Of a stretch of 23,143 nt of DNA, positions 1 to 3,000 are shown in pieces; within the stretch, counting starts at the first letter, position 1; each line of letters opens with the position of its first letter. The position numbers were made by a program. The stretch comes from a virus (Duplodnaviria > Heunggongvirae > Uroviricota > Caudoviricetes). Where the stretch lies: IMG/VR virus record IMGVR_UViG_2537562189_000005. One strand, 5' to 3'.

Positions 1-3000
1 TCATGCCGCGCAGTCCGCGTTGTTCACTTCCACCTTCACACTGTCAATCAGCAGCGTATATGTCGCCGCCTTTGATATGCCTGTCAGTTGCAGTTTGTCC
101 GCCGCCCCTGATGCCGGAGATTTCACCAGTGTGAACGGCGTACCCCGTTTCTCATCCAGTACCGGCGTCACCTGAATGCTGTTGTTTCCGGCAAACTCAA
201 AAGCCAGTGTGTGCCATCCGTTATCAAAGACCCCGAACGTATCCAGCTTCGCATTCTGCTTCTTGTGGTACATCGCGTTCAGGTTCGTCGCATCCGTCTG
301 CAGGAGAAGGACATCAGCATGTCGTTGCCTTCCTCTGACAGCGTCACTCCCTCGGCAGGGACGACAACTGCCAGTAAATACCCAGGGCAAACTGATTCGG
401 CACCAGTGCGCCCGGCACCTTAAACCGCACGCTCACACGTCCACCTTTCTTCAGCAACTCTGCTCCCTGCCCGGCTGCATCATGCTCCAGAAACCAGATG
501 TGGCTTTCCGGTTTGTTCAGTTGCAGGGCCTTACCACCAGTGGCACCCTCATCACTGACCACAGCCTCAGCGATGTTTTTATCAACACTGTCTCCGCTCG
601 CCGGTTTGTGATAATAGCGCCAGCCCTGTGATGCCAGGTCTTCACCGGACGCCAGCAGACTCATCAGGGTTCGGTTACTGACCGGGGCTTCCGGCTCTCT
701 CTCCGGGCCTTCACCGGAAGGTCCGGTGGGCTTCACCGTATCAGGCTGTTTTCCGGTAATGAATTCAGCGGTTCTCCCGGCATGCACCAGAATCGCCGTT
801 GCCAGACGGTCGGAAATAATCCCACGGCGAGCCCAGGTGCTGAAATGGCTCGCCCTGTCCTGTGACGTCCAGGTGGCTGAGCTGTCACGCCATTTCGAAC
901 CGTAATACCCGATACCCGGAATGTCCGGGTCTTCTTCCGGTTTGTTCGTCGGCACATTCACCCCGTTCTCATCCGTCATGAACGGTACGAAATGGATATT
1001 CTTTTCCGTTTTGTTTTTATAGCTGCCGTACACCGTCTGGTACGTGGATTCGTTCTTCTGCTTCCAGAAATACGTCGTGTCCCCGCATATCCAGGGAACA
1101 CCGCCAGCAGAGCCACCAACGCACTGACCTGCCATATCCGCCAGGTCTGCACGGAATTTATCAACCAGCGCACCAAACTGTGCGGCATGATTTACCGGCG
1201 TACCGCCAAAATCAAATTCCCCCTGCATCCACACCACGGCAAACAGCACATTTTTCGGGTTCTTCTTCAGTGCTGCTTTTGTTCGACCGATAAGGTCCTT
1301 ATACAGCGGCTTGTCCACACCCCAGCGGGTTGAATTCTCCGAGGCACCACTCGCGTCACTGTATGTGCCATCAGCTCCGGTGGTGAACGCAGAGCCACCA
1401 CGACAGCACGGAACCAGCAGAATGCCCGCATTCGCCGGTATAAACGGCAGCAGTTTTTTGGCGATATGCAGCCCCTGCCCCACGGTACCGTACTGCCCCT
1501 TTGACAGGTCCGCTTTCGGATGGTTAAGACGGCTCATGTCCTGCACATCATGCAGACAATGGTCCGCCGGAATGATGTCGTTATATTTACAGGCGACACC
1601 GCCCGGTGTCACCGTACTGCGGCGCGCCAGCTGCTTAATACGCGGGTCCGGACGGTCATATGTCTCCGGCAGCGGAAGACCTTCACCATACGACATGCCA
1701 TTTGACTGCCCTGCCAGAACCACAACAAAGTAATACTCTGGGTCGCTGGTGGCACTGACAGCCACCGCCTTACCCTCATTACCGGTCACCGCCACTGGTG
1801 TGGTGACATCACCTTCCGCCGCAATGGCCTGCATCAGGGTATAAGGCGTGATGGCCACCGGACTGCCAAATGGCTGCCAGCCCTCCTTCAGTTTTTGTGT
1901 CAGTCGTTCAGCAAGGTCTGACGGCGATGCCGCCCTGACCACATCGTAGTGTTTAAATGCCATGAATCCTCCCGGCCGGGATAATGTTCTGAGTCAGAGA
2001 AGGCACGGGCTGACCTCCGGAAACACAAAAGTCACACAGAAAAACAGCCCGCAAAAAAGAAATACGCCCTTACAGTTGCGCAAGGTGATTACTCTAAGGT
2101 ATTATTAGGGTGCTGAATAAATTACTTCACGTTTTGTTATTTATTCCTTGCTTCCTTGCCAACCGCTCTTCCCAGGAGCGGTTTTTTTACATGTAAAAAG
2201 GCTCCTGCGATGAGGAGCCTGGATGTATGCCTAATCTCTGTATACTGCATGGTGCCGGGTGCCTCCCGGTGAACAAATGTCCGTGATATCAGTCGGCCAC
2301 ACAGGAAATGATACGATATCACCCCTCCGCACAGGGGGATTCACCATGCCCGTTTTTTTTAACAAACTCCTCATCAATCAGACAATCATCAACCTCATGA
2401 ATTGTGAGGAATTTAACATTTCACAACACAGCCTTTTCCCTGCATAAAAAAGCCCCTCCGGAGAGGGGCCGATCGCTATGTATACACCATAAGCAGCATA
2501 GTGCCGGGTGCCTCCCGGTAGATTCAGCCTGACTACTGAATCTGCGTATTATGACCATCGCTATGGAGACCATGTCAGACGCCCCTCCGCACAGGGGGAT
2601 TCACTATGCTGGCTCGTTTTTACAAGACTTCCATCGATCAGACAATAGTCCATCAACCGAATTGTGAGTCATTTAACATTTCCATGAGGTAACTGATATC
2701 CAGCTAACAATCATCTACAATGGACGAAGCCAGTTCCAGAACTTGCCCACGGTACAGCAACAACCACTGCATACACATAATTACCACCGGACTCTCTGAA
2801 CCTGCCTCCTGGCTAACCCCAGATACAACACCACCAGTCACAAAAGCATCTTATTCTGAAGTACAACTGCCGTGCGGCAGATACTAAAAGCGCCTGTATG
2901 TAACAACATAAATATACAGGATATGTTTTATCCACGGGATATAATTTTGATTTCATCAAAACCGTTACTACCTGCAATTCTGTTGTACTCCTGAACAAGA

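What the first reader, a model, noticed from the sequence alone, without database searches (positions are those of the whole stretch)
2241..2685. Duplicated ~190-bp structured non-coding module where related phages carry tRNA and toxin cargo
Two copies (2241-2425 and 2490-2685) share five conserved blocks in identical order, including hairpin-capable GTGCCGGGTGCCTCCCGGT and CCCCTCCGCACAGGGGG, while the sequence between blocks has diverged. That pattern suggests selection on structured RNA or protein-binding elements rather than a recent duplication. They lie between the cargo genes and the NanS-p-like gene, with a strong minus-strand terminator between the copies. They could be small RNAs, terminator or antiterminator leaders, or degenerate tRNA-flanking sequence.
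Basis: seen in the sequence. Interest (0 to 1): 0.5.

Follow-up and report, generated by a model that had tools for sequence, protein, structure and literature searches.

The report
Two tandem STnc100 prophage small RNAs
The duplicated module is two neighbouring genes, on the minus strand, for a small regulatory RNA family (STnc100) already catalogued in lambda-like prophages of E. coli and Salmonella, so it is real and structured but ordinary.

Summary
The repeat is real. It is two full-length members of Rfam family RF02076 (STnc100) on the minus strand: 2638-2442 (121 bits) and 2378-2189 (141 bits), against a gathering score of 47. The window holds no tRNA.

Each unit looks like a self-contained small-RNA gene. 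It has a CRP-like box centred at -61.5, a weak -35 (TTGTCT), an A-rich -10, a ~160-nt RNA and its own intrinsic terminator. The "terminator between the copies" is the 3' end of the upstream gene. The transcription start is inferred from the related EPEC sRNA PasD.

In 65 relatives, the stems that vary show strong compensatory change. A pseudoknot-type pairing is kept in 59 of 65.

The two copies are different subtypes, not a recent duplication. Each is closer to copies in other elements than to its neighbour. Related E. coli strains carry 2, 3 or 4 tandem copies in the same slot, upstream of the sialate esterase gene.

In phage 933W the same family sits just after stx2B. Published work there describes an expressed, Hfq-bound sRNA (EcOnc27/sRNA103).

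Verdict: already known, low interest. The small additions are the tandem arrays, the pseudoknot, the CRP-like box and an unannotated convergent sRNA candidate at 2112-2190 (+).

The parts
2442..2683 (-). Copy A (upstream unit): a complete STnc100 gene, from the CRP-like box to the end of the terminator tail
   Evidence: Rfam RF02076 hit at 2638-2442, 120.8 bits, model positions 1-206. The conserved upstream box is seen.
2663..2678 (-). Copy A CRP-like box TGTTAAATGACTCACA (9 of 10 core positions of TGTGA-N6-TCACA), centred 61.5 nt upstream of the inferred +1
   Evidence: The pattern occurs only twice in the window, at the two copies, against 0.16 expected. In 29 of 100 distinct family upstream regions a box scoring at least 8/10 is present, always at -60.5 to -62.5. 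CRP binding was not tested.
2617..2645 (-). Copy A inferred sigma-70 promoter: -35 TTGTCT (2645-2640), 17-nt spacer, -10 TAAAAA (2622-2617)
   Evidence: Alignment with PasD1/PasD2, whose RNA-seq 5' end is the G of GCAUGGUG and which have TTGACT-18-TAAAAA upstream. The motif is conserved among E. coli-type copies. The tool's promoter scan did not report it, because the -10 lacks the final T.
2445..2609 (-). Copy A predicted RNA (~165 nt). P1 is 2609-2602 paired with 2503-2496. H1 is 2598-2583. The P2/variable arm is 2582-2544. H3 is 2543-2520. H4 is 2518-2504. The linker is 2495-2471. The terminator stem is 2470-2451, followed by the U tract at 2450-2445.
   Evidence: MFE -68.8 kcal/mol, z = -3.9. 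Terminator scan. Covariation of P1, P2 and H3 in relatives. A GUCUGAC/GUCAGGC pairing links the post-H1 segment to the H3 loop. P1 carries a compensatory G-C to A-U change relative to copy B.
2189..2423 (-). Copy B (downstream unit): a complete STnc100 gene of a variant subtype
   Evidence: Rfam RF02076 hit at 2378-2189, 141.3 bits, model positions 1-206.
2403..2418 (-). Copy B CRP-like box TGTTAAATTCCTCACA, centred at -61.5
2356..2385 (-). Copy B inferred promoter: -35 TTGTCT (2385-2380), 18-nt spacer, extended -10 TGT-TAAAAA (2364-2356)
   Evidence: This is an inference; no TSS data exist for this locus.
2193..2349 (-). Copy B predicted RNA (~157 nt). P1 is 2349-2342 paired with 2254-2247. 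H1 is 2338-2323. A long hairpin (GUGAUAUC/GAUAUCAC) at 2322-2283 replaces the usual H3-loop pseudoknot. A mini-hairpin is at 2282-2271. H4 is 2269-2255. The linker is 2246-2221. The terminator stem is 2220-2199, followed by the U tract at 2198-2194.
   Evidence: MFE -57.2 kcal/mol, z = -2.6. Terminator scan. The same subtype occurs in L058 and L031:3242-3353, with a GAUACC/GGUAUC compensatory variant. The first ~21 nt of the 3' linker are identical to the 933W copy.
2076..2190 (+). Convergent candidate sRNA gene, back to back with copy B. Promoter is TTGCGC (2076-2081), 18 nt, TATTAT (2100-2105). The RNA runs ~2112-2190, with its terminator stem at 2161-2183.
   Evidence: Plus-strand terminator. 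It occupies the slot that AsxR holds next to STnc100 in 933W (L005 3679-3731) and shares the CAGTTGCGCA -35 region. Fold z = -4.7. No Rfam family matches, including AsxR and AgvB, at E<=10. It is present at >=80% coverage in 138 E. coli genomes and never annotated in the rows listed.

Best explanation
The region holds two adjacent, independently transcribed genes of the prophage small-RNA family STnc100. They lie on the minus strand, in the 'moron' slot of a lambdoid prophage. Upstream is cargo (a DNA methylase and an AraC-type regulator); downstream are the NanS-p-type sialate esterase and the lysis genes.

Each gene appears to have its own sigma-70 promoter: a weak -35 TTGTCT and an A-rich, partly extended -10. 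A CRP-like site at -61.5 suggests cAMP-CRP activation.

Transcription most likely starts at the G that opens helix P1. The RNA is ~160 nt. Its 5' domain is a P1-closed multi-helix junction with two invariant hairpins and, in copy A, a pseudoknot. A ~25-nt single-stranded linker follows, then a Rho-independent terminator with a U tail. That layout fits an Hfq-dependent, trans-acting sRNA.

In the lysogen the RNAs would be made constitutively or under catabolite control. They would act on host or prophage mRNAs through the linker or loop sequences, which differ between the copies, so their target sets probably differ. The two terminators would also stop cargo transcription from running into the esterase and lysis genes. 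After induction, Q-modified polymerase would read through both.

Shown here: family membership, strand, terminators, covarying structure, context, variable copy number.
Taken from papers on homologues: expression in lysogens, Hfq binding, effects of overexpression.
Inferred: the TSS, the promoter, CRP control, the seed location, and terminator read-through by Q.
For: - Family: two full-length hits to Rfam STnc100 at 141 and 121 bits (GA 47).
- Terminators: each copy ends in an intrinsic terminator.
- Context: order on the minus strand is Q ... methylase, HTH, STnc100 x2, SASA esterase, holin, lysozyme.
- 933W: the family member (208 bits) lies between stx2B and the yjhS/nanS-p homologue, abutted by the convergent AsxR.
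- Structure: over 65 relatives 98.4% of cells are paired, against 43-47% when partners are slid. There are 136 double-change cells against 16-34, and 0 of 500 shuffles reach the covariation score.
- Pseudoknot: a helix of >=5 bp in 59 of 65, with 49 distinct strand sequences.
- TSS and promoter: PasD1/PasD2 start at GCAUGGUG and have TTGACT-18-TAAAAA upstream. Both window copies align to them.
- CRP-like box: at -61.5 in both copies and in all 29 family members that have such a box.
- Literature: EDL933 has 11 STnc100 copies, most transcribed, one Northern-verified (PMC5331693). EcOnc27/sRNA103 is Hfq-bound and its overexpression raises fimZ and espA (PMC7873438, PMC5030294). Convergent sRNA pairs sit 3' of PR' in eight Sakai prophages (PMC4104026). 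RpoD is bound at STnc100 promoters in Salmonella LT2 (PMC10794520).
Against: - No expression, TSS or Hfq data exist for this strain. The TSS is transferred from PasD, which does not itself reach the STnc100 gathering score and whose start was only estimated from RNA-seq coverage.
- The inferred -10 (TAAAAA) lacks the usually conserved final T, and the consensus scan did not report it.
- CRP binding is purely a sequence inference. The left half-site is variable (TGTTA, TTTTA, TGTAA), and 71 of 100 family upstream regions lack the box.
- The 5' domain is far more structured and more invariant than base-pairing sRNAs need, so seed pairing may not be the whole story.
- No direct target of any STnc100 proper has been shown. 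The sRNA103 effects are reported as probably indirect.
- The invariance of H1 and H4 is partly ascertainment, since relatives were fetched with exact matches to those motifs.
Confidence: 0.78

Rival explanations
1. The units are mainly DNA or transcription-level boundary cassettes of morons. They would act as terminators that insulate the lysis genes from cargo transcription, and as conserved 'linker' sequences at which lambdoid phages recombine to swap cargo. The RNA would be a by-product. This is compatible with, and not exclusive of, the sRNA reading.
For: - Copies bracket cargo cassettes. In L002, L144 and L145 one copy follows the tRNA-TolA-like cassette and 2-4 more follow the HTH gene.
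- Copy number varies from 2 to 4 in one slot.
- In many genomes homology to this window starts at 2322, the edge of invariant hairpin H1, which suggests a crossover there.
- Two terminators sit in series.
Against: - A terminator or recombination linker does not need a 110-nt junction whose stems covary, with G-U pairs that are strand-specific, or a covarying pseudoknot.
- It does not need its own promoter-like elements either.
- Homologues accumulate as discrete Hfq-bound RNAs.
Confidence: 0.25
2. The conserved 5' domain is the functional part and does something other than seed pairing. It could be a protein-binding or decoy RNA, a processing signal that releases a short 3' sRNA, or a cloverleaf-like tRNA mimic. 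The resemblance to tRNA is that P1 stacks directly on the H4 hairpin, as an acceptor stem stacks on a T arm.
For: - H1 (CCCCCUGnGCGGnGGGG) and H4 (CCGGGAGGCACCCGG) never vary, even where compensatory change would be tolerated, while P1, P2, H3 and the pseudoknot covary freely.
- The family spans Escherichia, Pantoea, Erwinia, Enterobacter, Atlantibacter, Franconibacter, Lelliottia, Phytobacter and Superficieibacter.
- EcOnc27 is reported to overlap STnc100 only partly.
- tRNA genes are frequent neighbours.
Against: - Invariance is partly due to how the relatives were collected.
- No tRNA or tmRNA similarity is detectable.
- PasD, the one relative with interactome data, has a degenerate H4 and still binds Hfq and many targets.
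- No candidate partner protein was identified here.
Confidence: 0.2
3. The units are cis-acting leaders (attenuator, antiterminator or put-like RNA, or a PR'-tR' late leader like lambda 6S RNA) that control the esterase and lysis genes.
For: - They sit just upstream of the esterase and lysis cassette and end in terminators.
- At ~160-200 nt they are close in length to the lambda PR'-tR' transcript (own knowledge).
- I first read TAAAT-GACTCA in the upstream box as resembling the lambda PR' -10 and initial transcribed region.
Against: - Q lies 4.7 kb upstream (window ~7367-7729, converted from the L001 annotation), with cargo and two opposite-strand genes between.
- 933W has its own annotated PR', qut and terminators next to Q, plus the STnc100 copy after stx2B.
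- The unit precedes different genes in different phages, for example TolA-like in mEp460, and occurs in arrays of up to four.
- The PasD 5' end places the box at -50 to -75, upstream of the promoter rather than in the transcript.
Confidence: 0.05
4. The units are degenerate tRNA genes or tRNA-flanking relics, or short protein-coding ORFs.
For: - Phage tRNA genes lie just upstream of, or abut, STnc100 in several relatives. In L017 a tRNA ends 1 nt from the unit.
- ORFs of 46-62 aa overlap the region, and some phage records annotate hypothetical proteins there.
Against: - ARAGORN finds none, and no tRNA hit appears at E<=10.
- The copies differ by indels that are not multiples of three.
- Variation follows base-pairing rather than codons.
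- Most EDL933 copies show low ribosome coverage.
Confidence: 0.03

Closest known systems
Rfam RF02076 STnc100 (first listed in Salmonella). The 933W/Sp5 copy downstream of stx2B overlaps the Hfq-bound sRNA EcOnc27 = sRNA103.
   Same: - Full-length CM matches.
- The same P1-H1-H3-H4 core and a terminator of its own.
- The same slot between cargo and the nanS-p/yjhS esterase.
- The first ~21 nt of copy B's 3' linker are identical to the 933W copy, and the terminator is near-identical.
   Different: - Here there are two copies in tandem, against one after stx2B in 933W.
- Copy B replaces the H3/pseudoknot module with one long hairpin.
- Copy A has its own linker sequence and a different terminator stem.
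- The convergent partner is not AsxR.
PasD1/PasD2 of EPEC E2348/69 (Pearl Mizrahi 2021; Zhu, Shabalina & Storz 2026 preprint)
   Same: - The same slot, Q ... cargo, sRNA, SASA esterase, holin.
- The same 5' start GCAUGGUGAAUCC, an H1-like hairpin and a terminator; they can be aligned.
- The preprint itself concludes that PasD and STnc100 share an ancestor.
   Different: - PasD does not reach the STnc100 gathering score, and its H4 is degenerate.
- Its UGUGAG seed before the terminator is absent from both window copies.
- PasD has a consensus TTGACT -35 and no CRP-like box.
- The preprint reports Pas copies as dispersed, not tandem.
Convergent sRNA pairs at the moron site of lambdoid prophages (Tree et al. 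2014: EcOnc27/AsxR, EcOnc06/AgvB)
   Same: - A sense sRNA in the late-operon direction and a convergent short sRNA with back-to-back terminators, 3' of PR' and before the lysis genes.
- The window has the same layout at 2112-2220.
   Different: - The plus-strand partner here is ~78 nt rather than 51-60 nt.
- It matches neither the AsxR nor the AgvB model.
- Only the promoter -35 region is shared with AsxR.

Membership tests
Rfam RF02076 STnc100 | Covariance-model score at or above the curated gathering score (47 bits) over the whole model | tested here: met
   141.3 bits (2378-2189) and 120.8 bits (2638-2442), both covering model positions 1-206, minus strand.
Rfam RF02076 STnc100 | Core helices: P1 closing a junction, H1 CCCCC/GGGGG, H3, H4 CCGGG-AGGCA-CCCGG, and a 3' terminator | tested here: met
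   Both copies fold this way. The helices covary or are invariant in 65 relatives. Copy B has a variant arm in place of H3.
Rfam RF02076 STnc100 | Location in the late region of a lambdoid prophage, between Q and the lysis genes | tested here: met
   Annotated near-identical locus in E. coli SMBL. Same position in 933W, mEp460 and PhiR5_1.
Hfq-dependent trans-acting sRNA | Rho-independent terminator with a U tail, preceded by a single-stranded A/U-containing stretch | tested here: met
   8-bp GC-rich stems followed by 6 U (copy A) or 5 U (copy B). A ~25-nt linker is left largely unpaired in the MFE folds.
Hfq-dependent trans-acting sRNA | Hfq binding, Hfq-dependent stability, and base-pairing with defined targets | not testable with these tools
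   Known only for homologues: EcOnc27/sRNA103 and PasD.
PasD (EPEC) | PasD sequence, with the UGUGAG seed just upstream of the terminator | tested here: not met
   Alignment shows only the 5' start, H1 and overall layout are shared. PasD loci do not reach the STnc100 GA.
tRNA / tmRNA | Detection by ARAGORN or the Rfam tRNA model | tested here: not met
   0 genes in the window. No tRNA or tmRNA hit in 1700-3300 at E<=10.
Anti-sRNAs AsxR (RF02703) / AgvB (RF02702), for the plus-strand partner at 2112-2190 | Match to the family model; 51-60 nt with the conserved ~42-nt 3' region | tested here: not met
   No hit at E<=10. Alignment with 933W AsxR shares only the promoter region and the terminator tail.
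Lambda-type PR'-tR' late leader (6S-RNA-like) | Promoter directly downstream of Q, with a Q-binding and pause element; single copy | tested here: not met
   Q lies ~4.7 kb upstream with cargo between. 933W has a separate annotated PR'/qut. Arrays reach four copies.
Class I CRP-dependent promoter | TGTGA-N6-TCACA-like site centred at -61.5 from the transcription start | tested here: inconclusive
   A 9/10 core match centred at -61.5 in both copies. However, +1 is inferred from PasD and CRP binding cannot be tested here.

The most novel reading that the evidence does not exclude
STnc100 may be more than a seed-pairing sRNA. Its 5' domain is a five-helix junction closed by P1. It has two hairpins that never vary and a covarying pseudoknot, and it is conserved across many genera of Enterobacterales. 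It could be a protein- or enzyme-recognised module, for example a tRNA-like processing or stability element, or a decoy.

In the E. coli clade transcription may be placed under cAMP-CRP by a class I site at -61.5. The genes also expand and contract as tandem arrays of 2-4 diverged subtypes, which would give prophages a tunable, catabolite-responsive RNA output next to toxin and lysis genes.

The two HUS-associated polymorphisms reported ~90 and ~103 nt downstream of stx2B (PMC12711010) would then fall in the extended -10 and discriminator of this promoter.
Probability: 0.2. Interest if true: 0.55.

Novelty: already known. Interest (0 to 1): 0.22.

Why it matters
The practical value is annotation. 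RefSeq annotates no feature over this 500-bp stretch. It holds two, and probably three, small-RNA genes of a kind that in EHEC and EPEC bind Hfq and touch virulence gene expression.

The same family sits directly after stx2B, where sequence variants were recently linked to clinical outcome. A correct map of its promoter, transcription start and structure would therefore make those associations testable.

The tandem arrays and the different subtypes in one slot show how prophages diversify their RNA cargo by recombination at invariant motifs. None of this changes what kind of element it is.

Tried and rejected
1. tRNA or tmRNA: ARAGORN and relaxed Rfam find nothing. Rejected.

2. PR'-like late promoter with a sigma-dependent pause. 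I read TAAAT-GACTCA-CAAT in the upstream box as lambda-PR'-like. I rejected this once PasD's 5' end placed the box at -50 to -75, and given Q's distance. It was reinterpreted as a CRP-like site.

3. Several hand-assigned -35/-10 pairs (TTGACA in 933W, CACAAT as -10) had impossible spacings and were dropped.

4. The consensus promoter scan found nothing on the minus strand in this region, because the likely -10 lacks the final T.

5. AsxR or AgvB on the plus strand: no Rfam hit at E<=10.

6. I considered writing the pseudoknot into the MAFFT alignment for the count of structure pairs. I did not, because the loop columns are out of register between sequences. I used per-sequence helix search with non-cognate and shuffle controls instead. 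About half of the individual sequences reach p<=0.05 on their own; the strength lies in the 49 distinct compensating helices.

7. Pfam on the unannotated 92-aa ORF at 2928-3206 gave nothing.

8. Not used, as unnecessary: protein-homology, structure-prediction and metagenome scans.
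Full report
**Observation.** The window contains two direct copies of a ~250-260-nt unit. The repeat finder reports 2322-2422 against 2582-2682 (76%) and 2247-2270 against 2496-2519 (96%), with start-to-start spacings of 260 and 249. A MAFFT alignment of the two 260-nt units read on the minus strand has 78% mean column identity, with blocks of identity separated by diverged sequence and a 12-nt indel.

**Identity.** A scan of the whole window against Rfam gives two full-length matches to RF02076 (STnc100, "Gammaproteobacterial sRNA"). 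Both are on the minus strand: 2378-2189 at 141.3 bits and 2638-2442 at 120.8 bits, against a gathering score of 47. ARAGORN finds no tRNA or tmRNA in the window. A relaxed Rfam search of 1700-3300 at E<=10 shows nothing else credible: no tRNA, AsxR or AgvB. Each copy ends in an intrinsic terminator, with stems at 2470-2451 and 2220-2199. The "strong minus-strand terminator between the copies" is therefore the 3' end of the upstream gene.

**Context.** The window is 99.9% identical to a prophage of E. coli strain SMBL. The order there on the minus strand is:
- DUF968 protein
- antiterminator Q
- two opposite-strand hypothetical genes
- a small hypothetical gene
- DNA methyltransferase
- HTH protein
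- the unannotated repeat region
- SASA-family carbohydrate esterase
- holin
- lysozyme

Pfam confirms an N6/N4 methylase (4085-5152), an AraC-type HTH protein (3296-4021), and DUF1737+SASA for the esterase. In phage 933W the same family (208 bits) lies between stx2B and the yjhS/nanS-p homologue, abutted by the convergent anti-sRNA AsxR. Related phages therefore carry this module downstream of the tRNA and toxin cargo, not instead of it.

**Anatomy of one unit.** The EPEC sRNAs PasD1 and PasD2 occupy the same slot upstream of the esterase or holin. Their estimated starts and ends are given in the supplement of PMC8550237. Aligned with the window copies and with the 933W copy, PasD starts exactly at the G of GCAUGGUGAAUCC, the first base of helix P1. 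It is preceded by TTGACT, 18 nt, TAAAAA.

By homology the window copies have these elements:

| Element | Copy A | Copy B |
|---|---|---|
| -35 TTGTCT | 2645-2640 | 2385-2380 |
| Spacer | 17 nt | 18 nt |
| -10 | TAAAAA 2622-2617 | TGT-TAAAAA 2364-2356 |
| Inferred +1 | ~2609 | ~2349 |

Further upstream both copies carry TGTTA-N6-TCACA (2678-2663 and 2418-2403). This matches 9 of 10 core positions of the CRP consensus and is centred 61.5 nt from the inferred +1. The pattern occurs nowhere else in the 23-kb window, against 0.16 expected. Among 100 distinct upstream regions of family members, 29 have a box scoring at least 8/10, and every one lies at -60.5 to -62.5.

The TSS, the promoter and the CRP reading are inferences. 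The -10 lacks the usual final T, and the consensus scan did not report it.

**RNA structure.** The predicted RNAs are 2609-2445 (165 nt) and 2349-2193 (157 nt). Each folds into a P1-closed junction, then a linker and a terminator, with z-scores of -3.9 and -2.6.

I collected relatives by exact-motif scans:
- 16 loci came from one-genome-per-species contigs. They span Escherichia, Pantoea, Erwinia, Enterobacter, Atlantibacter, Franconibacter, Lelliottia, Phytobacter and Superficieibacter.
- 120 loci came from IMG/VR.
- From these I extracted 97 distinct cores and aligned 65 non-redundant ones.

RNAalifold recovers five helices. On that structure 98.4% of cells are standard pairs, against 43-47% when the 3' partners are slid. 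There are 136 cells with changes on both sides, against 16-34 in the slid controls. No shuffle out of 500 reaches the covariation score.

| Helix | Behaviour across 65 relatives |
|---|---|
| P1 | Covaries at its outer pairs (G-C / A-U, 34 vs 25) |
| P2 | One pair has 25 double changes |
| H3 | All five pairs show double changes |
| H1, H4 | Invariant |

The G-U majority at one H3 pair (42 of 65) fixes the strand.

The 6-10 nt after H1 also pair with the loop of H3. A helix of at least 5 bp is present in 59 of 65 sequences, with 49 different strand sequences. Examples are CUGAC/GUCAG, ACUGGAUA/UAUCCAGU, CCAGCC/GGCUGG and CUAGAC/GUCUAG. The cognate mean is 6.0 bp against 4.3 bp for non-cognate pairs. 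This crosses P2 and H3, so it is a pseudoknot, which the structure line of the Rfam match does not show.

One caveat applies: the invariance of H1 and H4 is partly ascertainment, since those motifs were used to fetch and extract relatives.

**The two copies are different subtypes.** Their cores are 53% identical in the family alignment. Each is closer to copies from other elements than to its neighbour; the sister copy ranks 22nd and 30th of 64.
- Copy A is a canonical pseudoknot type.
- Copy B belongs to a subtype also seen in L058 and L031:3242-3353. In it a long hairpin (GUGAUAUC/GAUAUCAC, with a GAUACC/GGUAUC compensatory variant in relatives) replaces H3 plus the pseudoknot.
- The first ~21 nt of copy B's 3' linker are identical to the 933W copy. 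If the linker is the seed, copy B would share targets with sRNA103 and copy A would not.

**Arrays.** In the same slot other E. coli strains carry different numbers of tandem copies:

| Strain (locus) | Tandem copies | Further copy after the tRNA-TolA-like cassette |
|---|---|---|
| S19-141 (L145) | 2 | 1 |
| STEC1587 (L002) | 3 | 1 |
| RM10466 (L144) | 4 | 1 |

Tandem pairs at ~250-260-nt spacing recur in IMG/VR contigs and in Superficieibacter. In many genomes homology to this window begins at 2322, the edge of H1 of copy B. This is consistent with recombination at the invariant motif. The pattern of conserved blocks with diverged sequence between them therefore reflects both selection and mosaic assembly.

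**Published work on homologues.**
- EDL933 has 11 STnc100 copies. Most are transcribed in uninduced culture and one is verified by Northern blot (PMC5331693).
- The copy after stx2B overlaps the Hfq-bound EcOnc27 = sRNA103. Its overexpression raises fimZ and espA, probably indirectly (PMC12711010, PMC7873438, PMC5030294).
- Tree et al. describe convergent sRNA pairs 3' of PR' in eight Sakai prophages (PMC4104026).
- RpoD is bound at STnc100 promoters in Salmonella LT2 (PMC10794520).
- STnc100 was detected in outer-membrane vesicles of STEC (PMC12370729).
- Zhu, Shabalina and Storz conclude that PasD and STnc100 share an ancestor. They report Pas copies as dispersed rather than tandem.

**Mechanism.** The best-supported reading is two autonomous sRNA genes. 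Each has a promoter, possibly CRP-activated, then a structured 5' domain, a single-stranded linker, and a terminator with a U tail that would bind Hfq. They would be expressed from the lysogen and act in trans. The two terminators in series would also insulate the esterase and lysis genes from cargo transcription, and Q-modified polymerase would read through them after induction.

Rivals, none fully excluded:
- A boundary or recombination cassette whose RNA is incidental. This is compatible with the main reading, but it does not explain the covarying junction and pseudoknot.
- A 5' domain with a function of its own, suggested by the invariant H1 and H4.
- A cis-acting late leader, contradicted by the position 4.7 kb from Q, the variable downstream genes and the arrays.
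- tRNA relics or small ORFs, contradicted.

**Comparison and novelty.** The element meets every testable criterion of RF02076. It is not PasD, since PasD loci fall below the STnc100 threshold and the seed is absent. It is not a tRNA, and it is not a PR' leader. It is already known as a family, and these sequences exist in public genomes.

The modest additions from this work are:
- recurrent tandem arrays of diverged subtypes
- a covariation-supported pseudoknot
- a CRP-like box at -61.5 in the E. coli clade
- an unannotated convergent sRNA candidate at 2112-2190 (+)

Interest is low (0.22). The most novel reading not excluded is a catabolite-controlled, array-forming RNA whose invariant 5' domain has a function beyond seed pairing. 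I give it about 0.2 probability.

Noticed in passing
window 2076-2190 (+): Candidate unannotated sRNA convergent with copy B. Its promoter is TTGCGC, 18 nt, TATTAT. The RNA is ~78 nt and ends at a strong terminator (2161-2183), back to back with copy B's terminator. It sits in the slot AsxR occupies in 933W and shares the AsxR promoter's -35 region, but it matches no Rfam family. Fold z = -4.7. It is present in 138 E. coli genomes at >=80% coverage, and its 5' part in ~860 more at ~83% identity.
   Followed up: partly
window 2403-2418 and 2663-2678 (-); L005 3432-3447: A CRP-consensus-like box (TGTTA-N6-TCACA; TGTAA-N6-TCACA in 933W) lies exactly 61.5 nt upstream of the inferred STnc100 start. 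It is conserved in position in all 29 family members that have it. This suggests catabolite control of these prophage sRNAs.
   Followed up: partly
L005 (933W) ~3486-3500: PMC12711010 reports HUS-associated polymorphisms ~90 nt (T/C) and ~103 nt (T deletion) downstream of stx2B. Within a 1-2 nt counting uncertainty, these fall on the TG of the extended -10 and on the T-run between the -10 and +1 of the STnc100 promoter inferred here. They may alter sRNA expression rather than RNA sequence.
   Followed up: partly
L002 6761-6973; L144 5076-5288; L145 4002-4214: In relatives a further STnc100 copy (171-172 bits) follows the tRNA-Ile/tRNA-Arg/TolA-like cassette and precedes a methyltransferase pseudogene. 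STnc100 units therefore bracket successive cargo cassettes. In mEp460 the unit instead precedes the TolA-like gene (L003 3061-3251).
   Followed up: partly
window 2322 (edge of hairpin H1 of copy B): Many E. coli genomes match this window only from 2322 upward, at 97.7% identity (hits H14-H25). That is a homology breakpoint at the invariant H1 motif, consistent with recombination between family members there.
   Followed up: no
window 10488-10663 (-): Full-length match to the Rfam sok antitoxin RNA (117 bits). It implies a hok/sok-type toxin-antitoxin locus in the prophage.
   Followed up: no
window 18556-18607 (+): Full-length DicF sRNA (75.8 bits), as in Qin-type prophage immunity and cell-division-inhibition regions.
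   Followed up: no
window 2928-3206 (-) and 2700-2927: A 92-aa ORF with no Pfam match, not annotated by RefSeq in the near-identical SMBL record, plus ~230 nt of non-coding sequence between the AraC-type HTH gene and copy A. The stretch is conserved at ~97% in many genomes along with the HTH gene. A weak terminator-like hairpin lies at 2880-2867 (-).
   Followed up: partly
L017 2244-2506 and 3390-3471 (Phytobacter massiliensis): A tRNA gene ends 1 nt from the 3' end of an STnc100 unit on the same strand, and an isrJ-family RNA lies ~900 nt away. tRNA genes are frequent immediate neighbours of the family in several genera.
   Followed up: no
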